In this document: positions 18,221-53,271 of the stretch, piece by piece
Layout of the letters: each line of letters starts with the position of its first letter
Position numbering within the stretch: the first letter of the stretch is position 1
Assembly: GCA_026025075.1 (NCBI GenBank)
Contig: JAPEUI010000003.1
Location: forward strand, 1-64,000
Origin: Vezdaea acicularis
Lineage: Eukaryota
Direction of reading: 5' to 3'
DNA: 64,000 nucleotides
The notes under the pieces: generated by a model
Told to the model about the DNA's origin: nothing
Databases searched by the model: none
The model's input: the letters and a program-made list of their open reading frames with translations, nothing else
Translations under genes and position numbers: made by a program

Positions 18221-19876
18221 CTAAGCTATTGTCTGATTGTCTGGACACCTACGTGCATTATGGTCAAGTGAAAAGCACATACTGCACCTGGGTGGGGTGC
18301 GTTGACGCTCCTGTCCGGACACTTCAATATTTGTCCGGACAGTCTGATTCTCCTCAATTGAGATTAATTGTTGAGCTCTAGCTCCAGTCAGGACACCGCC
18401 TCTAGCTAGATATGATCGTCTTTGTGACCGTTTGCGTTTTTGGCGTTTGTTTTCCGCTTCAAGCCTTTCATTTTGACCGGCCAACAGGACAGCGTTATGC
18501 ATAGCTATTTGGCATCCCTTGACCAACTGTCCAAACGCTTGTTTTGTTGGAGACAACAGGTCATCTGTATGACGTTGCATATATTGTTCAATTAATTCTG
18601 TCTGATTCTGCAACTCTATGATGTTATGGGGCGTCTCGGCAGTCCATGTTAATGGGACGCTTGGACGGAGTTGAGGTGATGGAGTGTGATATTGAATATG
18701 CAATAGTGAAAGAACACGATCAGGATTATAAGGGACAAGTCCGGTTGCGGCAAATCCGCTTCGAATGTTATTTTCGTGCAACGCTTCCTTACGAGCCTGT
18801 TGATAAAGGCGTAAAAATTCCTGTTTATCAATATGATTGACTCCGGTGCTCATTAAAGACTCAACAAGACGTCCATACGCTTGTTTTAGGACAGCAAAAC
18901 AACCCACATCAAGAGGTTGAAGGATGTGAGAGGAATGCGGAGGCATACAAAGGACAATTATTGATTTGTCCAGACAATATTGATCAAACTCAGGCGTAAC
19001 ATGACTCCCATGTCCATCCAGAATAAGCAGTCTATAGCGACCAATAGTGCGACGCTCTGTATAGGCGTTAAACACTGTCCTTAACCAGGTCATACATATA
19101 TCGTTATTTGTCCATCCATTTTCACTGACCCCAATTGTCCAGTCGTCTGGACAGAGTTGTTGTGCGTACCAGGACGTTTGGTGCATTACAGCTTCAAAGA
19201 TAATAAACGGTGGAATAGAGACGCCCCGGGCAGAAACAGTCTCAATTACAGTGACCCATTCACGGTTTCCAGGTTGTATTGTTTTGAGACGTCCTGCTCT
19301 ATCAGATCCGGTCACTACTTTTGCGGTTGATATGACGCCCATCTAGAAACCTGTCTCGTCAAAATTATATATATCTTCTTCTTGTATGCCATGCTCATCA
19401 ATTGCGCTCCATACCCGTTCAAACCATGCTTTGATAAGCTTTGAATCTTCGCATTTTGCACGTTGGTAGTCGTATTTACGATTATATTTTGATTGTATCT
19501 GGTCATGTCTGTTGATGAAATTGTTGACTCAATGTTGTCCTATCACAGTTGGGCTGTCTGACTGAGATCGTTGTCTAAGCAATAGGTGTGCCATCTCCCG
19601 TACAGTTGCTACACGAGGGAGCATCCCGCGTCTGTCCATGGACAGAATCCAATCTAAAAGACTTTGCTCTTCAGTAGGTGTAAGGAAACGATTATGTGGG
19701 ATACAATTGCGTCTGGACAGTTGTCCCTGGATGCGTCGCTGTAAGGTTGTCCTAGGGATATCAAATGCTTTGGCAGCAGCCCGACAACTTCTGAAATGAC
19801 CCTGTCCATACGCCTGGACAGCTAGATCAAGCCTGCCCTCTTGATGGACAGGATTGTGTTGTTGTGGTGTCGCCAT
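18221..19876 (-). pseudogene. Pogo/Fot1 transposase with two in-frame nonsense codons
   Basis: One frame: psq-type HTH (AAAKAFDIPRTTL), CENP-B-type HTH, YNFDETGF*MG, LLILDGHGSH, HILQPLDVGCF, C-terminal CxxC-x4-H-x4-C. Stops are TGA at 19529-19531 (expected Trp) and TAG at 19343-19345 (expected Gln). Confidence 0.92.
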
Positions 19877-28277: not shown

Positions 28278-29260
28278 ATGAATCCTCAACGAGGTCGAGG
28301 AGCCCCTCGTGGCCGAGGCGTGCCCATGCGCGGAGCACCAGTAAGAGGCAGAGGCGTGCCTACAAGGGGCCGTCCGCCTGGTCGGGCGATGAGAGCTCGT
28401 GGGCGAGGTGTCCCAATGCGGGGAGGTCCTCCCCCGCGTGGAAGAGGCCCACTGCGTGGACATCCCCCCTCGAGAGGATCTGCACCGCATCTCGCTGCTG
28501 GACGTCCAGCCCCTCAACATGCCGCAAGCCATCCAGGAACTCACGCGCCAGCAGCCCATCCAGGAGCAGCCCGCCCAGGGGCAACCCACGCCGCGACGAC
28601 TGCGGCAGGCGCTCACAAAGCCCCCGCGCACGCCGCTCCAGCCAAAAAGTAGGGAGATATAGATTCCAAAGTGCTATATCATAACTAACCACCTACCAAC
28701 CTGTCAGACCAGGCCACAAACTAGCCACGGGCGCGGCGGTGGGAGCCGCCGGCGCCGGCGCCGCCTACTTGTACCACGAGTACAGCGAGCACAATGAGCA
28801 CAGCACCGAGACGGAGAACAGCGAGAACTACGAAGGCCACGAAAGCTACGAGGGCTATTATCAAGGCGAAGACGGCGAGTGGTACGAGGACCCGGACTAC
28901 GAGGGCGGCTATGAGGGCGGCTACGAGGGCGAGGACGGACAGTGGTACGAGTATCCCCCTGAAGACGAGCATGGTGGGGATCAAGCCCAGATCATGTCTG
29001 CGGGGGACGATCCGTTTCCGGCGAGCGAGGCGCCCAAGATGGAGGCGGAGAAGCCTGGGTTGGGGGGTAGTGCGGGAGATGCGACGGCGGCCGGAGGAGG
29101 AGCGGATGATGGCTGTTGTGGCGGTTGCTGCGATTGTGGGAGTTGTTGTGGTGGTGGTGGTGATGGCGGGGGATGCGGTGGTTGTGGAGGCTGTGGCTGT
29201 TGCGGAGATTCGAACGATCCGCAGAACAATAATGATAGCGGATGTTGCGTCATTATGTAG
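28278..29260 (+). CDS. Low-complexity protein (307 aa): RG-rich N-terminus, acidic YEG repeats, Cys/Gly-rich tail, CaaX box
   Basis: join(28278..28648,28708..29260). 59-nt intron GTAGGG..ACTAAC..CAG joins the 124-aa and 173-aa ORFs in frame. Ends GCCVIM. Confidence 0.8.
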
Positions 29261-35479: not shown

Positions 35480-36744
35480 AGACCCCGGGCAGCCCAGCGA
35501 ACTCTAATGCCGTTACGTATGACTGATGTTGGTGGCTTCGTAACATTACTGTTGCTACGATCTACTGACGTTTTCTCAATTCACAAAGGATAACAAACAT
35601 CTGAGGGCAAATACCCCCGAACTCTTTTTCCAGGATCTATTTGGATTATGAAGAAACGTCCCCGCTTATTTTCAGCACATCTCGTTACGGCCTCTCGAGC
35701 ATAGATCTTCTGATCATGTTAACGGCAAGTTCAGTTTGATTGTCCGTGAAAAGGTAGCTTCTAGGCTTTGAAGAGCATTCTAAAGCCCGAAAAAGAGTGC
35801 GATTGATGGCATAATATCTTGCCACGGATCGTGGTATGAGAGCTACTTGTTTGAGGGAAAAGGCATCCTCAAATTGGCATACTAGAATTCTCATAGCTAC
35901 CATCAAATACTCTACGGCGTTTTGGGGTTGTGCCAGTCAACGACACCATTGGAATCGTGCCATCTTTGGAAATCAAAAGGCGGGGAATATACCAACTGCA
36001 GAAGTGCTGGCTTGCTAATCTCCGTACCTGTCAATTTCCAATAGGCGTCATGGACTGTTCAGGGGAGAACGAAGCGACGGGACAGTACGTAGAGAACGAA
36101 GCCAGATTTTCATAGTTTCAGACTTTCAACATAAATACAACACAAGTACCCTCGCCTTCTCTCCTATTTTCTAGCTGTAGATATATTGAGAATTCATATT
36201 TGCACTGAAGTGATGACGCGGCTTAATCCTACAGCGAAGAGACTTTGCTTTAAGAGGTCTAGCTGTCAGGCTTCAACCTTAGTTACCGAGGACTCGACTC
36301 GTGGTGGCTACGTACCCGCGCTCAAAACTCTCGAGCAAAACTTTTGCCTAGCGCATGTACCATCAGCAAGAGCACAGTGGACAGATCTCCTTCCAGACGG
36401 CCTCATTTCACACAATTGAAAGCGAATCCGATGATAGACACTATGTCGTCTTCATTTCGCTCGGGGTTTTCTCCTGCGTCCTGCTGTAGGTACAAGCGTA
36501 CTCATAAGCGGCAGAAAAATGAGGCGGTGTCAGTCATATCTACTCAGTCCGAGATGGTTGGTTGACAAGGTTGATTCTTGGGACAAGGCTGCCTAGAACG
36601 AGATTTCTAGAGAAGCCTTTCCTAGCTTCAAGAGACGAATCTCACACGTATGGACATGACTTCAAAATACAGTCTAGGCAGCAGTCCAAAATCTTAACTT
36701 TAAGAGCTGCGCATTTGTCTTGCGGTGGGGGCTGCAAGCAAGCG

Positions 36745-39333
36745 ATGCACCAACGTGGGGCCACTGAAGACCACGAGCCAATTCCGTTCGAGAAGACATT
36801 TTGGCGCTCACAGAGCTTACGAAAGAGGGTCTTGGGACGGAGGATACTGAGGCTACGGAATTCCTCGCATGAGACGATGACGGACTTGGACTCCATCGAC
36901 TTTCTACATTCGCCATATCCCACATCCCCACTACATCTACTTCCGGAGGGCTCAAACTCCCCGCCATGCCCCGATTCAGATCCATTATGGCGGTTCCCTT
37001 CCGAGGTGTTCGAGAAAATCATGTCATTTTGTTCTTTTGTAACTCTTGACTCAGCTCGATATGTCAGCCGGGACTGGTATCGGCGGATTATGGGGGACCC
37101 CTGGATACTCAAGTCAGCACTATCTCCATTTAGTGATCCCATATGGATTGCTTACATTTCCCACTGCAATGAGTTGTCGGAAGCAGAAAAGGCCAAGACT
37201 TTGCGCCAATTGGCCATCATGTTCGATACTGCCTCCCATCCCGTTCGGACCAATCAAAGTGATGAGAAGTGGAGGATCAGATACAGGTTAAGCAGGCTTG
37301 AGTTCAATATCAACAAGAGCAAAATATCTGAGGGCCTCAATCGAGCTATCACTTTCGTTACAGTCTCTGGGTCAGGAGGTCTTGTAGCCTTCATCGTTCG
37401 CCACGATTCATGTATCCGCGACGGAGCGGTAGAGGTAGAAGGGGCAACCCCGCAATACACAGTTCTGGTCTACCACCTCAGGCCAGGTAATACTCCTGGG
37501 ATTGTGGCGTCTCTCCGCTGCCCTACCGAGTACGGCAGGCCTACGCACGTTCAGATCATTGAAGGCCACTACAGAGTATATTGGGTTGCCAAGATCACCT
37601 TTGCAGACCTCAGGGAGATACGTATGCATCCGCCTCCATCAGAGCAACACCCTGTCCCCAAACTCGCTGTCGAAGATGTATATCCGACCTTAGACACCGA
37701 AGCTGTGGGAAGCGATGGGCAACCACGGTTTACATTTCCCGGCTACCGCAAAGGCGGATGGCACAACTTCGAGACGCCTAGCTATACAGAGACTCACTGG
37801 TCTGATACCATCACCCCGTCAAAACTGAGCGGAAACACTCCGGAAAACCTCGGCCACATGGCCTTGAAGAGTTTACAAGAGCGCCACGCCATTGACAATT
37901 ACCCTGTACCCAAGAACAACAATTGGCGACTACTCGAGAACCTACATGTAGATGCCTACGACAAAGTCGCTTGGCGCTCCAGATGCCCTAAACCCGTCAA
38001 ACACTACACAGTAGCCGAATTACACAATTTTGGCCTCCCAGATTTATTCATCGGATGGTACTGGGTAGCACGATGGGAACCCACCGGTGCTCTGTTCATT
38101 GTTTGTCTCGAAAATGGTAAAAACCCACTCATATCCCTCAAGCGCGGCGAAGCCGTTTCGGTGCGTAGGATTGCCCTCCTCACACCTCCGTACGATGGCT
38201 ACATGTATAAGAACATCGTCGCGGCACCGGAAGTCCTCATCGGCCGATCGCGTACTCTTCGCATTGGCGTCATCTGGCAGCACCCAGGCTCAGGCCAGGC
38301 GCCCGTCACTAGCAATGTCCTCTTCCTCTACGACTTCAAGATGCTGTACCTGGGTCCCGACAACCGGCAATTTGACAAACAGCAGATCATTCCGTCGCCG
38401 GGCCTGCGCCAGTCCCCGAGGAGCCGCGGCTTCCCCATTGAGTGGGAGGTCGACCTTGACGGGCGCTATTGCGGGCCCACAGATATGGCGAGCCTCGAAA
38501 TTCCATATCCCTTGAACGACCATAATGTCAAGCTCACTTCGCATGGTCAAAATATCGAGTTTCTCACCAAACTCGCAAAAAAGGGCCCCCTAACGCCGAT
38601 GCGCGTGTGCACGCTCGGTCCGAAGCAGGGGGGACTGCACTGGTCGTCGCCCCTCCTGACCGAAGGCGACGAAGGCCTCGACTGGACCTTAAAGGAGGTC
38701 GCACTAGGCGGCATGCGCTTCCAGGGCGACGGGCAGAGCGAGATGCGCGTCTGGGGACCCTCGTCCACATCCCCTGGCGTCGATACAGGTGCTATCGACG
38801 TCGACATATTCGAGCTCGGAGTCGGCCGGATGGGCACGAGATGCTACGACCGCATCGTAGGGCCACGAGACCAGCTGTGGGCGCGTTTTGGCTTCTACGA
38901 CAAGGCCTGCATGTGCATCCTACACGACAGCGGGTACCGCATCACGCTACCAGACGTCGCGGACGTGGAACGCGCGAACCGCAATGCGGCTGCGCGCCGG
39001 AAGAAACCAAAGTCTTTTGTCCTCCTGTCCATCGGAAAGAGCGATGGTTCCCCCTTTTCGCCAAAGCCGCCCAAGGACGAGGTCAAGAGCTGGGATAGTG
39101 CCCCGAGGAGGGAGGCTCTCCGCCTGATGGTGGAGAGGAGGGAGGAGTATCGGCTTCGGCTTGCGAGGGAGGAGGTCGAGCGGAAGGAGCGGATCTTGGA
39201 TAGGGTGCGTACGGGGCGCTTGGCTAGTGGGGACGCGGACGGGGCGTGGGAGGGGCAGGAGGGTATGGAACATGTGATGGCGGCGAATGGGTGGGAGAGG
39301 TGGCGGAGGAAGTTAGTTAGTTGGAGGGGATGA
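36745..39333 (+). CDS. F-box protein with long uncharacterised C-terminal region
   Basis: Single uninterrupted ORF. F-box DPLWRFPSEVFEKIMSFCSFVTLDSARYVSRDWYRRI. First ATG is 36745; 36877 is an alternative start. Confidence 0.8.
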   Translation: MHQRGATEDHEPIPFEKTFWRSQSLRKRVLGRRILRLRNSSHETMTDLDSIDFLHSPYPTSPLHLLPEGSNSPPCPDSDPLWRFPSEVFEKIMSFCSFVTLDSARYVSRDWYRRIMGDPWILKSALSPFSDPIWIAYISHCNELSEAEKAKTLRQLAIMFDTASHPVRTNQSDEKWRIRYRLSRLEFNINKSKISEGLNRAITFVTVSGSGGLVAFIVRHDSCIRDGAVEVEGATPQYTVLVYHLRPGNTPGIVASLRCPTEYGRPTHVQIIEGHYRVYWVAKITFADLREIRMHPPPSEQHPVPKLAVEDVYPTLDTEAVGSDGQPRFTFPGYRKGGWHNFETPSYTETHWSDTITPSKLSGNTPENLGHMALKSLQERHAIDNYPVPKNNNWRLLENLHVDAYDKVAWRSRCPKPVKHYTVAELHNFGLPDLFIGWYWVARWEPTGALFIVCLENGKNPLISLKRGEAVSVRRIALLTPPYDGYMYKNIVAAPEVLIGRSRTLRIGVIWQHPGSGQAPVTSNVLFLYDFKMLYLGPDNRQFDKQQIIPSPGLRQSPRSRGFPIEWEVDLDGRYCGPTDMASLEIPYPLNDHNVKLTSHGQNIEFLTKLAKKGPLTPMRVCTLGPKQGGLHWSSPLLTEGDEGLDWTLKEVALGGMRFQGDGQSEMRVWGPSSTSPGVDTGAIDVDIFELGVGRMGTRCYDRIVGPRDQLWARFGFYDKACMCILHDSGYRITLPDVADVERANRNAAARRKKPKSFVLLSIGKSDGSPFSPKPPKDEVKSWDSAPRREALRLMVERREEYRLRLAREEVERKERILDRVRTGRLASGDADGAWEGQEGMEHVMAANGWERWRRKLVSWRG

Positions 39334-39879: not shown

Positions 39880-41227
39880 CTAGGAGGGCGGTTTCTCCTT
39901 CGCCAGGGAGAGCTTCTCTAGTTTCTCCTGTACGCTCCTCACGATCTCCGGATCGAGGTCTGGCTTCTCTTTCGGTTTCTTCTTCGGCCTGTCACTCTAT
40001 CGTTAGCGAAAAAGCTCGATGACTGAAGACTCCTAGGGAGGGGAAGGGCTGGTCGAGGCTGGACTTACGGATATCGTTTACAGTCCCCACACCGGCCATG
40101 GCCACAGGCGCCACACGTCTTCTCGCCGTCGACGAAATACTTCTCGCACGCATGACAGACCCACTTGACCCTCCTGACAGGCTTGCGCAGCACCCGCTCC
40201 TGCAGCTGGCGGGGCGGTGCGGGCTCCACCACGGCGGGAACGTCCCCGGAGTAGCCATTTGGGTATTTCTTCTTGTGTGCGGGATCGCGCGGACAGTCGG
40301 AGCAGCGGACGTGGGTGCAGTTTGGACAGACCTTCTCGCGGCCAAACTCGGTCTGGCATCGATGGCAGGTGCGGTGGACGCGCTGGCGGGCGGGCTTGTA
40401 GACCAGGTCCTGGGCGCCCGTCCGCGAGGGGATGCGCAATTGGCCTTTCAGCTGCCGCGTCCGGCTGTCCTCGCCGTACCTGATGCCTGTTGCGGGCGTG
40501 CGCAGAGGCAGGCCTGGTGCGGCGGCGCCCGTGGATCTGCTCTTCCCTGGCCCACCGTCACCGGCGCCGCTGCTCTTCGACTTCTTGGCGGGGTATCGCG
40601 GACACGCCTGGCATCTCGTATGGCCGCATTGCGGGTTCGGGCAGACTTTGCTGCGGGCGAAGGCCGTCGCGCACTGGTGGCAGTGGCGGTGGACGCGCAT
40701 CCGGATGGGCTTCTCGACGCGCTCAACGGGCTCGCGGGTGGGGAAGCTCCATTCGTGAGGTTCCAACGTGAGACCGTATTTGGCGAAGAGGGCGCGGGCT
40801 TTTTCTTGCTGGATAGCGGAGCGTTGCTCGGCACTTATGAGGGTGGTTTGTTGGCGGGCGCGGATGTTTGAGGACGTGCCTTTGGAGGCGGGATTTGTGG
40901 AGGAGTTCGTAGGGAGACTCGTTGGAGGGATTGCGGGAGTTGCGGAGGGATTTGCGGGAGGATTTGGAGGCGCAGAGGTCGTGATTGCTGTGGTGTGAGT
41001 GGGAGTGGTGGTAGAGGGTCTGGGAGAGAGGGTTAGCATCATTGTCAAAAAAAGATCAAATGGACATCTGAGACATACGCGCTCGGAGTTGCAAGAGCAG
41101 AGGTTCCAGAGATCGACTGTCTCTTGCTTTTGTCCCTCGACAGCACTGTCTTCGCTCTACTGAGGAGTTTCGTGAGGCTCTGACGCCTACCCGCTGTGGG
41201 GTCGGAGTCTTCTAGTGGTGCACTCAT
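39880..41227 (-). CDS. Fungal protein with three Cys/His zinc-binding repeats (402 aa)
   Basis: complement(join(39880..39988,40069..41019,41079..41227)). Three copies of CHxC-x8-CxxC-x-H-x-RCxxC-x-R (the first has a slightly longer spacer). Confidence 0.85.
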
Positions 41228-43190: not shown

Positions 43191-46100
43191 CTAACGCCCT
43201 TGCGACAGCGAAGATGAAGTCTTGCGCTTCGAAACCCTCTCGTTGTGGGAGTGAGAATCGTCGGCGAGATCGTTCATAGACTTGCGCTTGCGCCCGGTCG
43301 TGGGAACCTCCGTAACCTCAAGTGTTGGAGTCGATACGCCCGATGTCTCAATAGTGGTGTCGTCAGTGAGACTCACAGCCTCAGATGCCTGTCCCTCACC
43401 CGCGAGCCTCAATTCCTCCCCTTTCATATCGAACCAAGCCTCCATCTCTGTCTCTATGTAGTACTTCCAGCCAGGGTCCTCCTTGAGATATTCCTTGCAG
43501 TCTGGACAGCAAATGAAGGTTGCCTGGTCCACCGCACCGAAATCTAGCATCTCAAACTCCCTCAGAGTGTCACCAAGCAGATCGGTGTTATCGAAATCGA
43601 GACAGTCCTCACAGTACGCACGAGGACACCACCGACAGCGATAGAGCATTCCCCCGGCGTCGGAGTTCTTCTGTTCGCAGTCATAGCATTGGTGCTGATC
43701 ACAGAAAAACTGTCCCATGCCGGACTTTGCTCGGGCCCTGGTCTCTTTAGGTAGACATTGCAGATGATAAGACCGAGGGCAGCCGGTGCAAAGTGTGATG
43801 GTGCCTCCATCCTTGCAGATATGGCAGTACTATCGCGAGGGTCAGCGTTATCACACAAGCAATGAGGTTGGCATCTTACCTCTTCATTATTCACCTTTCG
43901 CTTCTTGCGTTTTGGTGGTGGAGGTCCCAGCGAGGATGTCATCGTCGGGACTGCCTCCCAGTCCTTACATCGCATACTCTCCTTGTTAATGGCGTATCCA
44001 TCGACCATGACAGTCGTATTCTTTCCAACTCGCCTGTCTGCTCTCTCCCAATCGAGACGTATATCAGCATTTGAGTCTCTACCTTTCTCTTTGGCGTATT
44101 TCTTGCCATCAAAGACACGGCACTCAACCCGCTCCATTTGAGAGAGCCACTTTGCTTCCTCATTTTCGTCAAGTTCATCCTTGGTCACCTCGGGCTTGAC
44201 TGACAAGTCGGCGGGCTTATCACGGCATTTTTCGAGTATAGTGTCCCAGTCCCAAGAGATCATTTCATCAACATTGGCCTCTGGGTGAACCAAAGTCTGG
44301 GCGCCTCGACGCACCAACGCCATGAGTTGACCGGCATTCATTTGAGGCATGTCATCGGTATTGCTAGCACTATGGCGAGTTTTACTTTTCCTCTGCTTTG
44401 ACTCTGGGCCATGGATGTCTCGCATACTTTCCATGACCTTAGCGGAAAGGTACAATTTCTTCTGGATTCGGCCCATCATTTGCTCCTCAACTGTTCCTTG
44501 AGAGCATAATTTGTAGACGGTCACCGGGTTCTTCTGTCCGATTCGATGGGCACGAGCCTCTGCTTGAAGCGTGATTTGTGGGTTCCAGTCGTGATCAAAC
44601 ATGACAACATCTGAAGCCGTGGCCAGGTTGATCCCGAGACCACCAGCTCTAGTTGAGATGAGCATGACCTTGCAACTAGAGTCGTGCTTGTTAAACTGAC
44701 GAATACCGAGATTCCTCCTGGCTCGACAAGTCCCGCCATCTAGACGACAGTAGTCGAACTTGCTTCCATCCTCACTTTTCATGATCATCAGGTCCTCAAT
44801 GAGATTGAGTGTCATTGAGAAGCCAGAAAAAATCAAGATCTTCTTTCCCTGTTTGAGGACGAGCTCGTCCACCAATTTGTTGAGAACAACAAATTTTCCC
44901 GAAGCCTGGATGAGATGATCGCCGAGGTAGAAAGGATCAGGTTGAGCGCCCGGCAGAGTATATGGATGGTTGCAGCACTTGGAGACGTCAGCAAAGGAAT
45001 GGAACTATCAAACGAATTGGCAAACCTTTCTGAGTTGCATCAGCAAATTCATAAGCTTCTGGTAGTCAGACTTGTTGTTCGTCTTTTCCTCCCCCGTCTC
45101 TAAAGCCTTTCGCAAAATCTCTTTCGACTCCTGCCATTTGTCATTGATGGCCTCGTTGTTGAGCTCTTGCTCTGCCACGTCCTCAACATTAGGGATCTCA
45201 AAAAGCTTGAGCTTTCTATCTTCCTCGGCATCTTTCAAACGAGCACTTTCCTCCTTACCCTTTGCGTCTTTGAAGAGCTGCTCTAGTATACCTTTATCCA
45301 TCCGAGAGAGAAGTCTCTCGTACCAGAAGCGTTGCATTGGAGTGAGTGGCACGAAGAGCAGTATATCCGTCTTTGGCGGAAGGTTCAAGTTCACGCCAGG
45401 GCTGTTTTTCATCCTCCGAAGCATGACAAGCTCAAGCAACCTTCGCGCGTCATCAAGGACGGACGTTCTAACTTGGCCCATCGTGAGGTTGAATGATGCG
45501 CTGAAGAGGTCCTGTGTGACAGTAGTGAAGACCTCAGGATATAGCCAGTGCAGCAGAGCCCACAGTTCAGTCATGTCGTTCTGGAGAGGGGTCCCGGTAA
45601 GAATGAGTCGCATTTCGGCTTGCAGGCCTTGCAGGGAGCGAGAGACCGCTGTGAGTTCATTCTTGATTTTGTGGCCCTCATCAAGCACAACATACTTCCA
45701 TACAAAAGCACGCTTGAACCACGCATTCTCCGCCTGATAAGTCTCGTAAGTGGTGACAATCAGGTCAATATTACGTTTGTCTAGCTCAAGCTCTTCTTCA
45801 TTTTCACTGTCAAGCGAAATGATCGGTACACCTGTCGAAGTCTTATCATCAGACTTTCTTGCCTTCTGTGGCTTGTGGCGGAGTTGACGTCCTTGTAAGT
45901 CTATCTTGCCTTCGGCTACTTCTTTCAATCGACTTCTCTCGTGAGTTGGACCGTGGAATCGAAGCACTTTCAGTCCTGGTGTCCATCTGGACGCTTCGGC
46001 CATCCAAGAACTGAGTACACTGAGAGGGCAAACTACCAAACAGGGTCTGATCAAGTCATCCGAGGTTGTAGGTTCATTCTCTTTCAACCATTGGAAGAGG

Positions 46101-47043
46101 GACAGGGTTTGTAGCGTCTTCCCAAGACCCATCTCATCGCCGAGAATGCCTGAAAGGCCGTTTCTATGCAGATAGACAAGGAATGAAAGGCCAGAGAGCT
46201 GATACTCCTTCATAGTAGCTTTGATTCTGTAGAGAAATATGTGCTTAGTGATTGTTATACATGAATCGTTGAACGAGGAGCTCACCCTTTAGGCTGTTCA
46301 ATTGGCTCATAATCATGAATTGTGATCTCAGCTAAACGGGCTCTTCGAGACTCTGCGTCTACTTCCTCCGCTTCATCCATCTCCATTGTCTTATCTGATA
46401 CATGGGGTTTCTTGTCTTCGACCGCGGCAGCTTTACCATCAAGGGCCATCGTATCTTCCTCCACCTTATTATCTGGAATCTCCAGCTCTCCATTCTCGGC
46501 TTTCTTAACAAGTCTCTGGATGAAGTTGCTTTCTGGCAAAAGAGGCAGGAAAAGATCTTTCTTCGAGACGAAGAAGCGATGTCTTTTGTTTGCCGTTTTG
46601 GTCGCAATTTGATGTCGAAGAGCGACTCTAGCGCTCTGAGCTACTTGTATTGAGTTGGCATTATTTCCACGCCGTCGCTTTACTGGCGACTCCAAGTCTT
46701 GGGAAAACGGATCGTCAACGTCGTGCCCGTACGGGGATCCTCCGTCTGAAGAGCCAGATTCCTCGTAGACTACATTGGATGCCTTCCGACGCAGATTTCG
46801 AGGTGTCGAATGTGGTTTTGGTCTGGGAGACGGGCGACTCTGTGTGACCTTACGAGTCTTTTGACGCTCATTATTGATCGCTTTCTCCGACAGCGCAGTC
46901 GCTCTGGACGATCTTCGGACGGCCATTGACCTGGACCTGGAGGAGGTATTGGGCGGAAGTTCATTCATGTCTGGAGTGACTCGAGCGGAAGACATTGCTG
47001 AACCCCAGTCTTCAGCGAACGGGTCTTCAACTGAGTTTGTCAT
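43191..47043 (-). CDS. SNF2-family chromatin-remodelling ATPase (ISWI/CHD-like) with C-terminal PHD and second Cys/His finger (1231 aa)
   Basis: complement(join(43191..43829,43880..44977,45026..46226,46286..47043)). Motifs GDEMGLGKT, DEGH, LTGTPLQN, LRKCCNHPY, STRAGGLGINL, QAEARAHRIGQ. PHD CHICKDGG..CTGCPRSYHLQC, then CDQHQCYDC..CRWCPRAYCEDC..CPDC. Confidence 0.93.
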
Positions 47044-47540
47044 TGCAAAAGATGTTTGCTCAGGTGTATTGCGCCGACTGTGAATGAATTTCGCGAAACG
47101 ACATGGCCGAACGCGTCAGATTTTGGAAGACGCGACGGAAAGTTGACCGGAATGGGCTAAATGGGTGCAAGGGTGCCCTACCGATTGGGTGAAGCGGACA
47201 CTTTACAGGGACATGTCTGCTCTGATTCGCCATTCATCTCGGGATTCTTACCATCGTCATTTCAACACTGAACGAGATTCACTCATGGATCCACTACTAT
47301 ATCGCGCTATCACATTGAGAGAACTGCCCAAATGTCGTACAATGTGCCCCGGTATACCTTTGGCCCTTTGAGTGTAAGGCTTATGGATTTCCATACCAGG
47401 GCCGTGAATTACCACCTTATCCAATGGTTGTGCTCCGATTTCTTTAACGAAATCGATCTGTCACGTGATTTGCTTGCCAAAATGTAGTGCCACTACCTCT
47501 GATCCAAGCCATGCTCTGCCATATATAGAAAGGTGCAACG
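47044..47540. promoter_or_regulatory. Shared divergent intergenic region (497 bp) between the SNF2-PHD and Clr2-N genes
   Basis: Head-to-head ATGs at 47043 (-) and 47541 (+). TATATA at 47522 sits just before the + gene. Confidence 0.6.
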
Positions 47541-48483
47541 ATGGCGCCATTCCAGAAGCTTAACGTGTTAGCCTCCGACGGAGTCGCAGAGTATAAAGAC
47601 AAAAAGACTGGGAAGATGATCCCCAATGCTCCAGAGGCCAAGATGCTTGACTCGACACCTACAGCAGCTAACGGCGTTGATTATTACAAGCCTTTGGACG
47701 AGATGAACGAGAAGGCGATTGATTGGAAACGTAAACTGGCTTACTTGCTTGCGATTCAAGCCGGAAGGTCGGAAGAAGAAGGTATAAACTGCGTAGTTGT
47801 GCCATTGTTATTGCAGGTCCATTGCATATCTACTGCGTCGTAGAGGCTGTTTATTTCCTTGTGTCTTCCTCAACCAGCACTTTGCTAACACATGCCTATG
47901 TCGTTAGCTAAGAAGTTTATCCTCGATCGCTTTCCTGAGAACTATCGGCTGTATGAGCACAACCGATATGTCATTGGCGTGAAGGGCCACAACGACCGCC
48001 ACGATGCCTATCTTTACGGCCACCCGAAGGGTGTAAAGAAGCGCTTTCGAAGCCCAGCAGATTTTGCGAATCACCTTGTGTGGTTAGCCATGGATCAAGA
48101 GCAAGATAGCGATAATTGTACTTGCCTCTGCTGTCAACCCGCGAAAGAGCCGTCCGAGAAGAAAGGGAAGAAGGCGGAGAAGAAGACGGAGAAGAAGGCT
48201 GCCAATGCTCCTGCTCCTGCTACTACTCCTGTCCTACCGCGAAGAGAAGATAGCGTTGATAAGGTCATGGTTGATGCTGGTGCGGGCGCGGGGAAGCTCG
48301 AGGGTGTTGCGGAGGAAGAACCTTACTGGCCACAGAACACAACCCATTTCAGCGACCCAACGAGACCAGGACAGCGAGGTAAACGAATCACCTCAACAAT
48401 AATATAACCGAATGCTTATAAACTCTACAGTACAAGCCCAGAACCCTGGTGATTTCGAGAAATTTATGGACCTCACTGACTAA
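47541..48483 (+). CDS. Protein with cryptic loci regulator 2 N-terminal (Clr2_transil-like) domain (254 aa)
   Basis: join(47541..47781,47908..48378,48431..48483). Motifs ASDG, WKRKL, FPENYRLYEH, HDAYLYGHPKG, RFRSPADFANHLVWL, CTCLCC. Confidence 0.82.
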
Positions 48484-48612
48484 GCTCTACCTACTCTGTA
48501 GATATTTTCTGTTTCCGATGGTTGCATAGCGAGGATCTGCATTTTTAAGAGGTGTTTGTCTCATTAATGAATGTATGTTTCGGAACCGCATCTCGTTTCA
48601 TTGTACTACCTA

Positions 48613-49840
48613 TCAGAACTCTATGTTCACTTTTGTGCCGCCCTCTTCGCCTTCCTCGCCTTCCACAGGCGGCAGACTCCACTCCTTAATGGCGAACCTC
48701 CTCCTACTAACCGTGAATGCCCAGTCTCCGCTCTCAGCGCCTCCCACCCCACTCCGCTCGCTCACGACCGGTATCTTGTGCACCCGCACAAGCCCTTGCG
48801 GATGCTCTTCCGCCGCTTTACTTCCCGGTGTACTCGGCGGAGCCGAGATCCCGATATCGTGAGCAAAGGGGGTGAGCTCGAGAACTCCGTCACTAACGAT
48901 CTCCGCCCAGCGAACAAGACCTGAGCTGCGTGGGTGGAGGGTAAGCGGTAAGGATAGCATTGCTGTAAGGACTTGATGATGTTGGCGAAGGAGAGATCGC
49001 AGCGAGTGGAGGAAGGGGAGCAAGTGGTGTGGTTGAGCGGACGATGCGGGATATATGGCCGGAGACAGTAGGGCAGGGATAGCTATTCGCACTGATGTTG
49101 GAGAGTCCGGTTTAAGGCGCCTCCTGAGGTCACTTATAATGCTTTCGAATGGGTCTATGCCCTTGGTAGAAACAGGTATATAAGTAATATTCGAAGGAGA
49201 AGGGCTGGTCAGTCGTGTTGTCAAGTCGAAGGTGTGAGTGTAAGGTCGTATGGGAAATGGCGTCTGAGGTGAGTTTTTGGACACGTTGCGCGGCGTCCTT
49301 GACGGTAAAGGTGCTGTGCAAGGAGAAAATTCAACAGATGGCCTGGCATTGATAGACATACGCACCTCTACTCGCGAGCGCGCTTCCCTGAAATTCTCCA
49401 AGACCTTCGTATCTCCATGCAATCTTCATCTTCTCCTTCTCTTCTTCGTGGCTCTCCTTAACCCCCTCTTGGACCTTAGCCAGCCCCGGCAATTCTCTTC
49501 CCCAGGCTTCATTCATACCAACCACGATAACGTCATGTCCTTGCATAACGCCTTCCGCGGCGTAGTACCGTAACAGTAGGCCTGTGTAGTCTGTCGTTCC
49601 GGTCTCTTCTAGAAGAATTGAGTTTCCGAGCGCGATACCTCCATGACCGCCGAGAAGACTGTCAAGGGATGCTGCGCCAGTGGAGGTCACCGGACGGCCA
49701 TCGATTGTGGAAGGCCGAATAGAGGGGTCCGGTGGAGACCTTGTTGGAGTTAGACTCGTAGTAGAGGAAGGTGATGATCCGGCGGGTGTTGCGCTAGGTA
49801 CAGCAGAGCTTACTGGGGTGTTACGCTTTCTAAATGACAT
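48613..49840 (-). CDS. ELP4: Elongator complex subunit 4 (PAXNEB, 391 aa)
   Basis: complement(join(48613..49313,49366..49840)). Motifs MSFRKRN, TSTGAASLDSLLGGHGG, EETGTTDY, LLRYYAAEG, MKIAWRY, HTFDLT, AFTVSRRRFAIKEWSLPP. Confidence 0.93.
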
Positions 49841-50143
49841 TATAGGTGCCTCGATGCTTCCTGAAAAAGGAGTCGAGATCATAAGTAGGTGGGGGGATGT
49901 TCGTGTTGCCGCTTAGAGATTCCCCACTAAAGTCCCTTCTTTCAGGGGCATCGTTTTACAGCGGCGCTGGATGTTGAAATTCTTTGGCGCGTCGCGACGC
50001 TTCCGCATCTGTAATTCACAAAGCCAGTCCAAAAACTCACGCCTACACCCACGCTCAAACCCAAAGGCATAGAAGCACGTCCTCGTATCTCGGACTTTCC
50101 GGCAGAAACATAAAGCTTTGGCTACCAAAGATCTTGCAGCGCT

Positions 50144-50700
50144 ATGGCCACTACTACGGCTACTACAGGCTCAGACACCCTTCTCTACTCCGAACGATTC
50201 GTCGTCCAAGATATCAACTTCAACAAAAATGCTAAGCCGGAAGAAGATCCCAATCCTAAGAAATACGACCGCGTCTCGCGTCTCAGTCTCATATCTACTG
50301 AAGCTGACCAGGCAATGACCGTGACACTCGATGTCAATACCGAATTATACCCAGTCACTCGTGGACAGAACCTTGTTCTTGCGTTGGCCTCGACGCTGAA
50401 CTTGGATGGAGAAAAGGAAGATGATAGCAGAGGATGGAGAGACGTGGGCGACGGTAATGGAAGTATAGCAGATGACTATGACTATGTCTGTCATGGGAAG
50501 GTGTATAGGTTTGAAGATAGTGAAGCGGAAACTATGTGAGTCCGACCTCAGGCTTTTTTGACCATACGTCTCGGACTCCGATACTAATAGTGCATAGAAA
50601 GGTATATATCTCGTTTGGAGGACTACTGTTATACATGGAGGGCCCCTACAGGAGGCTCACCCCGCTACGTATCGACTACGTCTACCTGTTAATAAAATGA
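50144..50700 (+). CDS. RPB8: RNA polymerases I/II/III subunit RPABC3 (164 aa)
   Basis: join(50144..50535,50598..50700). Motifs KYDRVSRL, LDVNTELYP, ADDYDYVCHGKVYRF, YISFGGLLL. Confidence 0.96.
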
Positions 50701-51035
50701 GAGGGGCGTCATCATCCCTGCTACAAAATGCATTTCAAGCCAGCATATGCCCGGAGTAATTTTGGAAAGGGTTTACGAAAACATCACAATCTGATACCGT
50801 GGTCCAGCATTTGGCGGTGATGTTGCAGATTCTACACTTTCCGCACTATTGTTACACCGTTCGGGGGACATGTTTTTGCTAGCTTGGTGACGACTATTAT
50901 ACGTATTTGTCGCTGCTTTGCAAAATGAGCCTCTCCCCGGAACTTGGTATGCCCACCCTCGCCGCAGTCGCATGTTGACAGTTGGTCCTGTCTATTTTAA
51001 AGCAGCAAGAGAAAAAGAGGTTCGTAGCGCTGAAG

Positions 51036-52208
51036 CTACCAAAAACATTCTCCCCGATTGGTGTAAGTCGGCAGTACAGGGAAATCTAGCGACTCCTGAA
51101 GGTCTCTGTGAAGCCGCCATTTCACATTCATAAGATCTGTCTCCGTGAGAGGGATCGAAGCTGGTAGCAGCTTGTGTCGAAGCAAGAAATCCAGCATGAC
51201 CAAAGCACAGTTCGGCTTCCATTCCTCGTTCGCGATGCTTTCCAGGACTTCGTATACAGTCCTCAAGGAGAAGCTTTCTACCTCCTTGTCTTCTGGTTTT
51301 GGCGTTTCGTCTGATTTGAGTTCCAGGTCAAAGACAAATTGCTCTTCCGGTTGAAAGAGATAGGTCTCACCTCCAGCAGAAGGGCCGCGGACTGTAAAGT
51401 ATGATACGCTTCCACATGGTACAGCCCTTTTCATGACCTCTTCGGATAAATTAGCTTCCTCCTTTGCCTCACGGACCATGCATTCACTTATATCCTCATT
51501 GGCCTGCAGCCCGCCTGCAACAGTATTGTCGAGAAGGCCTGGATAGGTTTGCTTTGTAGGTGATCGTCTCGCCACCCATATGCGGTCGATTGCACCGCTG
51601 CTATCACTTGTATAGGCCGTCATATGAGCGCCGTAAGTGATGACGCCAAATAGCGGGCTTGCAGATCTCTCAACCGACCAAAGCAAGTCTCCCTTCATAT
51701 ATTCTCCTCCCGCGTAGACACCATAGAGCTCGTTCCTCCATCCTTTAAGAACCTCGAATCTTCTCTCATCACGCCATTCCTCTACTGTAGTCTTAACGCG
51801 TAAGCTACGAGTAGGTTCATCCTCACCTTCAAGCTGGACCCAAATGTATTTCTGATCGGTCCAAGCGATGCTAGTATATTCTCGAGCATCGAGTGCTTCT
51901 TCGTCGTCTGACATCCGCATTGTCCACCAATGTCTGTACTTTGATTCCCCTAGCCGCAATATGACTTCTGGCTTCAGCAACCCCAAGACTATGCTTCCGT
52001 GGTGCAGAATACATATTGGCCGTGACCCGAAATGGGTTTTATCTCTCCATGTGCGTGGAACAATGCCATTATGGTATGGCATGCTATATCAGACGTGAGC
52101 TTCCGAGTATACACGCACTGTAACTAGATGAAGCAAGATTGGTAGCTTGTAAGGTAGCGGATGCTCTTACTTATCACATCTGTCTAGAATCTTCTTAATG
52201 AAGTCCAT
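51036..52208 (-). CDS. Nudix hydrolase, YJR142W/Tnr3-N-like (361 aa)
   Basis: complement(join(51036..52083,52171..52208)). Motifs GWRNELY, ERSASPLFG, WVARRSPTKQTYPGLLDNTVAGG, Nudix box REAKEEA, KPNCALVMLDFLLRH. Confidence 0.9.
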
Positions 52209-52554
52209 CTCGTCAAACCCCCGTATTCAAAAAGGATCATGCTCCGGACGGTTGCGGCCTGATCCGAGAGATATTGCTAGTGGAGTCTCGACTTCGCAAA
52301 TGCAGCAACAACAGAACGAATCATCTGAAGTCTGTCTTGGGATTCAGAAGGTGCCCGTGTCTATGTACCGCGCATGATCAAAGATACAATGCCATGCACA
52401 ATTGCGTCATGAGGCTCTCTAGCGTTTGTTGCTCGTTGTTTGATGATGCCTGAAGTAGGCGAAAGCAGAACTTCATAGATGATCGAACGTTACTGAAGGT
52501 CCTGAGCATGGTGGACAATCTTTCTCATGTAACATCACAGCAGCTGCGCTCAGC

Positions 52555-53271
52555 ATGTCATGCCCAATAGCAGTTCTATTGCCTTCTCGCCCATTACATA
52601 TCACGCCAACAACACAAACGCCTACAGCTCTAACCTTCACCATCCCCACCTTGCCGCCCTTCTCGCATATCTGCGTCTTCCTCCTTCCTGCAACTACTCT
52701 TCCCCCCGGTGCGCTCGCCGGGATATACCTGCAGCTCCCTGAATCGCCGAACTTCAAATTCCTCGGAGCAATCGGCAATGAGAAGGAAAGCGCCATCTTC
52801 AAAGTTGGGCGAGGCGGCGACAACGGACTACGGAATGATGGAGGTGGAGGAGATGACTTGATGGTCGATGAGATAGCGCCGGCAACCTCCCAAGTCTCGA
52901 TAGGTGGAGAGGTAGGAAATACAAGCGGGGTCCCTGAGATGATAATTGGGATACAGATAGAGCCTGCGGAAGCTATCGCAGTACAAATGGAAGCTTTGAA
53001 GCAAGAACGAGGCGCTGCCACCTCGTCCTCTGGGAATTCGTCACAGATAGCGCTTCGGCGGGGTGCATTTGCGTCACCTAATCAACCAAGTACGAAAGTT
53101 CTGGCACAGCGCATCATCGAGAACGCTTTCAATTTCCTGGCGAGCTTTGCAACGCAAGGTGGGACCGGGGAAGAGATGGTTCCGCTCAAGGCCTTTAGGG
53201 ACTGGTGGACTAAGTTCGAAAAGAAGATAGAAATAGATCCGGCGTTTCTAGAAAAGGCAGAAGGGGCTTAG
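52555..53271 (+). CDS. Hikeshi/OPI10-like protein (DUF775)
   Basis: Motifs HICVFLLP, FKFLGAIGNEKESAIFK, LAQRIIENAFNFLASF, VPLKAFRDWWTKFEKKIEIDPAFL. Confidence 0.92.
   Translation: MSCPIAVLLPSRPLHITPTTQTPTALTFTIPTLPPFSHICVFLLPATTLPPGALAGIYLQLPESPNFKFLGAIGNEKESAIFKVGRGGDNGLRNDGGGGDDLMVDEIAPATSQVSIGGEVGNTSGVPEMIIGIQIEPAEAIAVQMEALKQERGAATSSSGNSSQIALRRGAFASPNQPSTKVLAQRIIENAFNFLASFATQGGTGEEMVPLKAFRDWWTKFEKKIEIDPAFLEKAEGA

What the first reader, a model, noticed from the sequence alone, without database searches (positions are those of the whole stretch)
43191..48483. Head-to-head SNF2-PHD remodeller and Clr2-N gene: candidate SHREC-like silencing module
Seen: a SNF2 ATPase with a C-terminal PHD and second Cys/His finger (no HAND-SANT-SLIDE or chromodomains visible) shares a 497-bp divergent spacer with a Clr2-N-domain gene. 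Established: S. pombe SHREC combines Clr1, Clr2, the HDAC Clr3 and the PHD-containing SNF2 ATPase Mit1 for heterochromatic silencing; S. pombe Mit1 has its PHD N-terminal to the ATPase, unlike this protein. Inference: a co-regulated, non-canonical remodeller/Clr2 pair forming an undescribed silencing or genome-defence complex. Adjacency alone could be chance.
Basis: partly seen in the sequence, partly recalled or inferred. Interest (0 to 1): 0.72.

Follow-up and report, generated by a model that had tools for sequence, protein, structure and literature searches.

The report
Conserved fungal remodeller–Clr2 gene pair
Across the filamentous sac fungi, an unstudied chromatin-remodelling motor gene keeps sitting beside a gene for the silencing factor Clr2 while its other neighbours change, which hints at an undescribed partnership; this genome carries a cut-down version of the pair.

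Summary
An intact 1231-aa SNF2 ATPase with a C-terminal NSD-type PHD–C5HCH module faces a Clr2 gene across 497 bp.

The linkage is conserved. Clr2 is adjacent in 23 of 29 informative metagenome locus clusters (17 head-to-head, 6 tandem). Among 30 long loci Clr2 occurs in 21; the next commonest neighbour occurs in 5. The two genes are consecutive in all 6 named species where both were retrieved.

It is not SHREC. The ATPase belongs to a separate ISWI-like clade; grouping it with Mit1 is rejected (p-AU 9e-5), and true Mit1 lies elsewhere in the genome.

Relatives carry full-length Clr2. Here only the conserved N-terminal domain remains, and the ATPase lacks an N-terminal LLAxF motif found in most linked relatives.

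Best reading (0.45, inferred): Clr2 is a dedicated targeting partner of this remodeller. Linkage without shared function remains plausible (0.3). Ten literature searches found no description of the pair.

The parts
43191..47043 (-). SNF2-family ATPase gene, 4 exons, 1231 aa; ISWI-like motor of a separate clade, with no HAND-SANT-SLIDE or chromodomain
   Evidence: keeps 196 of 198 family-invariant residues
43497..43829 (-). C-terminal PHD + C5HCH-type zinc-finger tandem (residues 1020-1130)
   Evidence: Pfam PHDvar_NSD E 6e-10; model from relatives, pLDDT about 90 in this part, matches NSD3/NSD1/NSD2 PHD5-C5HCH, best E 8e-6
47044..47540 (.). 497-bp divergent spacer with MCB/SCB-like words near the ATPase start (TTTCGCGAAA 47089-47098, ACGCGT 47111-47116, ACGCGA 47130-47135)
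   Evidence: sequence; counts against shuffles and controls; the names MCB/SCB are recalled
47541..48483 (+). Truncated Clr2 gene: N-terminal domain only (silencing motifs C2SM1 and C2SM2, Cys cluster) plus a low-complexity tail; lacks the PWWP-like/BAH half and C2SM3
   Evidence: keeps 22 of 22 invariant versus 7 of 31 variable positions; motif definitions from PMC3903592 passages
48613..49912 (-). ELP4 (PAXNEB) gene, ending 130 bp after the Clr2 stop, where relatives have the rest of Clr2; not part of the conserved pair
   Evidence: not among the shared neighbour families listed; junction bridged by contigs in runs X1, X2 and X5

Best explanation
This is a conserved two-gene unit of Pezizomycotina: an uncharacterised ISWI-like nucleosome remodeller plus one of two Clr2 paralogues that serves as its dedicated chromatin-targeting partner, separate from Mit1-based SHREC. 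Shown: domain content, intact catalytic motifs, specific linkage, a separate Mit1, and the truncation here. Inferred: the motor slides or spaces nucleosomes. Its PHD-C5HCH reads the H3 tail, probably unmethylated K4 as in NSD3/CHD4-type fingers (family knowledge). Clr2 supplies nucleic-acid binding through its MBD-like N-domain and histone or partner binding through its PWWP-like and BAH domains. A short LLAxF helix in the remodeller's disordered N-tail is the candidate docking site on the Clr2 C-terminal half. MCB-like promoter words suggest action in S phase or repair, for example restoring repressed chromatin. In this lineage the unit survives in reduced form: the Clr2 C-half and the LLAxF motif are both gone and the Clr2 N-domain is kept.
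For: (1) Clr2 is adjacent in 23 of 41 locus clusters, or 23 of 29 with enough flank. Among 30 loci of 8 kb or more it occurs in 21, against 5 for the next commonest neighbour family. (2) The genes are consecutive in 6 of 6 named species with both retrieved: Lepidopterella, Amylocarpus, Chaenotheca and Trematosphaeria by accession, Thelocarpon and Cirrosporium by locus tag. (3) Adjacency survives the switch to tandem order in three separate places on the tree, so a shared promoter alone does not explain it. (4) Both genes are chromatin factors: the linked Clr2 model matches 5IKJ at Z 21.2 over 359 residues (rmsd 22, domains shifted), with PWWP and DNMT1 matches. (5) The LLAxF motif scores 5 or more in 21 of 23 linked against 4 of 11 unlinked clusters, and is absent in the window. 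(6) Three non-fungal or unnamed family members carry N-terminal Agenet, HMG or H1 domains, an analogy for a reader supplied in trans. (7) ACGCGT occurs in 10 of 18 spacers against 6% of 52 control upstream regions.
Against: Six of 29 informative clusters are unlinked, in several separate branches. The ATPase family also occurs in basidiomycetes, chytrids, Aspergillus and Volvox, where linkage was not tested. No fusion was found: 0 of 297 remodeller-search proteins hit the Clr2 profile. The motif correlation is imperfect. It is present in 4 (5 counting a cluster seen) of 11 unlinked clusters, scores of 5-11 overlap the null (maximum 14.7), and it is missing from the annotated Thelocarpon and Cirrosporium proteins. 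Clusters are phylogenetically related, not independent. MCB-like words follow the ATPase promoter and are mostly absent upstream of tandem Clr2 copies. In S. pombe Clr2 reaches Mit1 only through Clr1 (PMC6499331). I had no genome-wide baseline for how often head-to-head pairs persist across these classes.
Confidence: 0.45

Rival explanations
1. Positional inertia: an ancient head-to-head arrangement persists because a short shared promoter resists breakage and fungal rearrangements are mostly local. The two proteins work separately, Clr2 with Mit1/Clr3 and the ATPase as a stand-alone S-phase or repair remodeller.
For: 17 of 23 linked clusters are head-to-head, mostly 0.3-1.2 kb apart. Linkage was lost repeatedly. 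The ATPase family predates the linkage. The linked Clr2 type scores higher against S. pombe Clr2 than the unlinked copy does (28.0 versus 14.5 bits on the shared stretch), so it may simply be the ordinary SHREC subunit.
Against: Six clusters keep Clr2 adjacent in tandem order, and other neighbours turn over almost completely. Both genes are chromatin regulators. The Clr2 C-half and the ATPase N-motif are lost together here.
Confidence: 0.3
2. Alternative SHREC: the PHD ATPase replaces Mit1 in a second Clr2- and HDAC-containing complex that silences heterochromatin or transposons.
For: The linked Clr2 keeps the S. pombe fold and silencing motifs. The genome has two Clr2 paralogues, two candidate remodellers and an Arb2-domain gene.
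Against: The ATPase is not of the Mit1/CHD lineage. No HDAC-like or Clr1-like neighbour appeared among the shared families. The PWWP-like/BAH half, recalled as the Clr1-binding part, is missing here.
Confidence: 0.15
3. For this genome only, and compatible with the others: the partnership has lapsed, and the two genes are drifting remnants of the ancestral pair.
For: The Clr2 C-half is not found anywhere in the assembly. The ATPase has a longer branch than its neighbours (0.52 against 0.15-0.35), misses 21 of 366 highly conserved positions (member median 6, maximum 32) and has lost the GKDPRL stretch.
Against: The Clr2 N-domain keeps 22 of 22 invariant residues and the ATPase 196 of 198. A relative about 6-8% divergent (run X5) shows the same layout, with listed indels only outside the coding exons.
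Confidence: 0.3

Closest known systems
S. pombe SHREC (Mit1-Clr1-Clr2-Clr3, with Chp2)
   Same: A Clr2-fold protein (5IKJ) associated with a PHD-bearing SNF2 remodeller.
   Different: The ATPase is not Mit1; its PHD module is C-terminal and NSD-type, with no chromodomain. The evidence is gene linkage, not a purified complex. No Clr1 or HDAC link was seen. A real Mit1 coexists in the genome.
ISWI remodellers (SNF2h, Isw1)
   Same: Closest motor among solved structures: 467 bits against 369 for CHD4 and 361 for ALC1. Databases label relatives ISW2 or Snf2h.
   Different: No HAND-SANT-SLIDE; a separate clade (100/100) from the genome's own ISWI. The automatic label is misleading.
NuRD (CHD3/4 with MBD2/3 and HDAC1/2)
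   Same: A PHD remodeller with an MBD-like targeting subunit (PMC8667873 passages).
   Different: Different motor lineage; no HDAC shown; gene clustering is not a known NuRD feature (recalled).
HELLS/DDM1 with CDCA7
   Same: A remodeller with a dedicated, co-evolving DNA-reading partner (PMC10538959 passages).
   Different: The genome's LSH-like gene is separate (label recalled); the partner here is Clr2, not a zf-4CXXC protein.

Membership tests
Mit1 / Mi-2 remodeller | ATPase groups with Mit1/CHD | tested here: not met
   Family clade 100/100; CHD1+MIT1 100/97; forcing a clade with MIT1 rejected, p-AU 9e-5 (21 rows, outgroups from this genome only)
Mit1 / Mi-2 remodeller | PHD and chromodomain N-terminal to the ATPase | tested here: not met
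   No Pfam family in exon 1, PHD only C-terminal; the C45 gene has zf-PHD-like and Chromo_MIT1
ISWI | HAND-SANT-SLIDE C-terminus | tested here: not met
   Not found by Pfam; no profile match to the genome's ISWI in this region
ALC1/CHD1L | ATPase groups with ALC1; macro domain | tested here: inconclusive
   No macro domain in Pfam scans and ALC1 scores below ISWI, but no ALC1 sequence was available for the trees
SNF2 ATPase | Intact Walker A, DEGH and motif VI | tested here: met
Clr2 | N-terminal domain with C2SM1 and C2SM2 | tested here: met
   PF16761 at 83 bits; 5IKJ E 2.6e-9; 22 of 22 invariant residues
Clr2 | C-terminal PF10383 region with C2SM3 | tested here: not met
   Absent from the window gene and not found for this paralogue in the assembly; present in linked relatives
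SHREC | Physical complex with the Clr1 scaffold and the Clr3 HDAC | not testable with these tools
   An Arb2-domain gene exists on another contig; Clr1 was not searched for
SHREC | Required for heterochromatic silencing | not testable with these tools
   No functional data

The most novel reading that the evidence does not exclude
Filamentous ascomycetes have a second, genetically clustered NuRD-like machine. An ancient, unclassified SNF2 subfamily (PHD-C5HCH instead of HAND-SANT-SLIDE) docks through an N-terminal LLAxF helix directly onto Clr2, bypassing Clr1 and Mit1, to reposition nucleosomes on repressed chromatin during replication. This genome shows both halves of that interface lost together.
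Probability: 0.25. Interest if true: 0.8.

Novelty: new variant of a known kind. Interest (0 to 1): 0.62.

Why it matters
How Clr2 is recruited is described as enigmatic even in S. pombe (PMC8667873), and the make-up of the Clr3/HdaA complex in Aspergillus was reported as unresolved (PMC8535771). The linkage names a candidate partner for Clr2, and the first candidate partner for a widespread SNF2 clade that databases mislabel as ISW2. It also points to a specific short motif to mutate. The question becomes directly testable with two adjacent deletions and a pull-down.

Tried and rejected
- Complex prediction of Amylocarpus Clr2 (1-592) with the ATPase N-tail (1-65): no verdict. Score 0.00, alignments not used, controls not folded.
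- Expression: no RNA holder listed.
- Assembly artefact as the cause of the truncation: rejected, because the Clr2-ELP4 junction is bridged in runs X1, X2 (one study, possibly the source) and X5 (another study).
- Gene fission: no C-half found by PF10383 or by two full-length orthologues; the assembly may be incomplete.
- Fusion: none among 297 remodeller-search proteins and 125 Clr2-search proteins.
- Short Clr2 relatives: only 4 hits of 94-301 aa. One is labelled partial and one lies on a 910-bp contig; none was shown to be a complete N-only gene.
- Calling the C105 copy the 'canonical' Clr2: not supported; orthology is unresolved.
- The post-ATPase linker modelled poorly (pLDDT 35-63) and did not align to ISWI. 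Atlas hits were generic.
- Fisher tests are not used: the motif table was mis-tallied and the clusters are not independent.
- The first tree was a quick search that dropped 6 rows; one search replaces it.
- Literature searches gave no paper on this pair or ATPase family. The library lacks most subscription papers. Job 2016, Flaus 2006 and Marcet-Houben and Gabaldon 2019 were not held, and the supplements of the last could list this pair.
- Earlier scan notes: nothing by sequence, place or the first word set.
Full report
Observation. The minus-strand gene splices into a 1231-aa frame with intact Walker A, DEGH and motif VI. Pfam finds the SNF2 lobes and a C-terminal NSD-type PHD, and no HAND, SLIDE or chromodomain. 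A model of the C-terminal region, built from 24 relatives, matches NSD PHD5-C5HCH tandems best. The plus-strand gene starts 497 bp away and encodes 254 aa with PF16761 only.

What the ATPase is. It is not Mit1. The genome has its own Mit1 (zf-PHD-like plus Chromo_MIT1, contig C45), ISWI, CHD1, SNF2, INO80 and SWR1. In a 21-row tree the family is a clade at 100/100, and joining it with MIT1 is rejected at p-AU 9e-5. Among solved structures ISWI scores best: 467 bits, against 369 for CHD4 and 361 for ALC1. The family is widespread: 468 hits, and 145 representatives at E up to 1e-30. Twenty distant representatives were looked up; they include basidiomycetes, chytrids, an orbiliomycete, Aspergillus and Volvox. 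No named Sordariomycete appeared among the rows I saw, but I saw only 120 of the 468 hits. ALC1 could not be put in the tree, so that relationship stays open.

What the Clr2 gene is. There are two Clr2 paralogues. The copy on C105 is full-length and sits by a cytochrome b5 reductase-like gene and ADA3. The window's copy belongs to a type that is typically 550-790 aa in other fungi. A model of that type matches S. pombe Clr2 (5IKJ; Z 21.2, 359 residues, rmsd 22), with PWWP and DNMT1 matches in the C-half. Here only the part matching residues 1-170 survives. The rest was not found in the assembly. The junction to ELP4 is bridged in independent contigs, including a relative about 6-8% divergent. 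The surviving domain keeps 22 of 22 invariant and 7 of 31 variable positions, which indicates selection. It includes two of the three motifs needed for silencing in S. pombe (PMC3903592, passages).

Linkage. One metagenome scan gave 80 loci, the best 80 of 121, which collapse to 41 clusters at 85% identity. Clr2 is adjacent in 23 clusters: 17 head-to-head and 6 tandem downstream. Six clusters with at least 5 kb on both sides lack it, 3 have only one long flank and 9 are too short. Among the 30 representatives of 8 kb or more, Clr2 occurs in 21 and the next commonest neighbour family in 5. All 6 named species with both proteins retrieved have consecutive genes. On the tree, linked loci fall with Dothideomycetes, Leotiomycetes, Lecanoromycetes, Chaenotheca, Thelocarpon and a more basal branch; the class placement of metagenome loci is inferred from the tree. 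Tandem order appears in three places on the tree and loss of linkage in several. The clusters share ancestry, so these are not independent trials, and I have no genome-wide baseline for divergent pairs.

Mechanistic clues. (a) A short LLAxF motif in the ATPase's disordered N-tail scores 5 or more in 21 of 23 linked and 4 of 11 unlinked clusters. It is absent from the window protein and from the Aspergillus, basidiomycete, chytrid and algal proteins scanned; the null maximum was 14.7, so low scores are borderline. Its loss here parallels the loss of the Clr2 C-half, so it is a candidate docking site (inference). (b) Three non-fungal or unnamed members carry N-terminal Agenet, HMG or linker-histone domains. 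(c) ACGCGT occurs in 10 of 18 spacers, against 2.3 expected from shuffles and 6% of 52 crude control regions. It tracks the ATPase promoter, also in unlinked loci. Reading it as an MBF/G1-S element is recalled knowledge.

How it most likely works. The motor repositions nucleosomes and its PHD-C5HCH reads the H3 tail. The linked Clr2 steers it to DNA or chromatin, probably to re-establish repressed chromatin in S phase or after damage (0.45; every functional step is inferred). The rivals are linkage without shared function (0.3) and an HDAC-containing alternative SHREC (0.15). Independently of these, the partnership may have lapsed in this lineage (0.3).

Literature. I read passages only of PMC8667873, PMC10538959, PMC6499331, PMC3903592, PMC8535771 and PMC10589754; none of the passages describes this pair or clade. 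Other papers were seen only as search listings. Job 2016, Flaus 2006 and Marcet-Houben and Gabaldon 2019 were not held and are recalled. Ten searches found no description, within a library that lacks most subscription papers.

Verdict. A real, specifically conserved and apparently undescribed remodeller-Clr2 gene pair; not SHREC by membership, possibly NuRD-like in logic; seen here in a reduced form. Interest 0.62.

Noticed in passing
window 40065-41156 (-): Cys-rich ORF with three repeated CxxC units and no Pfam hit; a relative lies near the ATPase in 2 of 30 loci (L041, L055).
   Followed up: partly
window 18221-19342 (-): DDE_1 transposase-like open frame of 373 aa.
   Followed up: no
window 36523-39333 (+): 936-aa ORF with no Pfam hit; an F-box-like stretch near residue 155 is my reading by eye.
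   Followed up: no
window 48613-53271: Compact housekeeping block: ELP4 head-to-head with RPB8, and a NUDIX/DUF4743 gene head-to-head with a Hikeshi-like gene.
   Followed up: no
window 28685-29260 (-): Small Tyr/Gly-rich then Cys/Gly-rich frame ending in CCVIM, a CaaX-like end.
   Followed up: no
G000 C259, C287, C275 (L117-L120): Three C5 DNA methyltransferase genes; the C275 one shares a 2099-aa frame with a SNF2 match. The labels DIM-2, RID and DNMT5 are recalled.
   Followed up: no
L037, L054, L056 and annotated Lecanoromycete proteins: Many annotated proteins seem to start at a downstream Met and so omit the N-terminal LLAxF motif that is in frame upstream in related DNA; probably an annotation error.
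   Followed up: partly
run X5, at window 48582-48588: A relative has 683 extra bases between the short Clr2 gene and ELP4; their content was not shown and could hold a remnant of the lost half.
   Followed up: no
P0372, P0387, P0393: Algal and unnamed members of the ATPase family carry Agenet, HMG-box or linker-histone domains at the N-terminus.
   Followed up: partly
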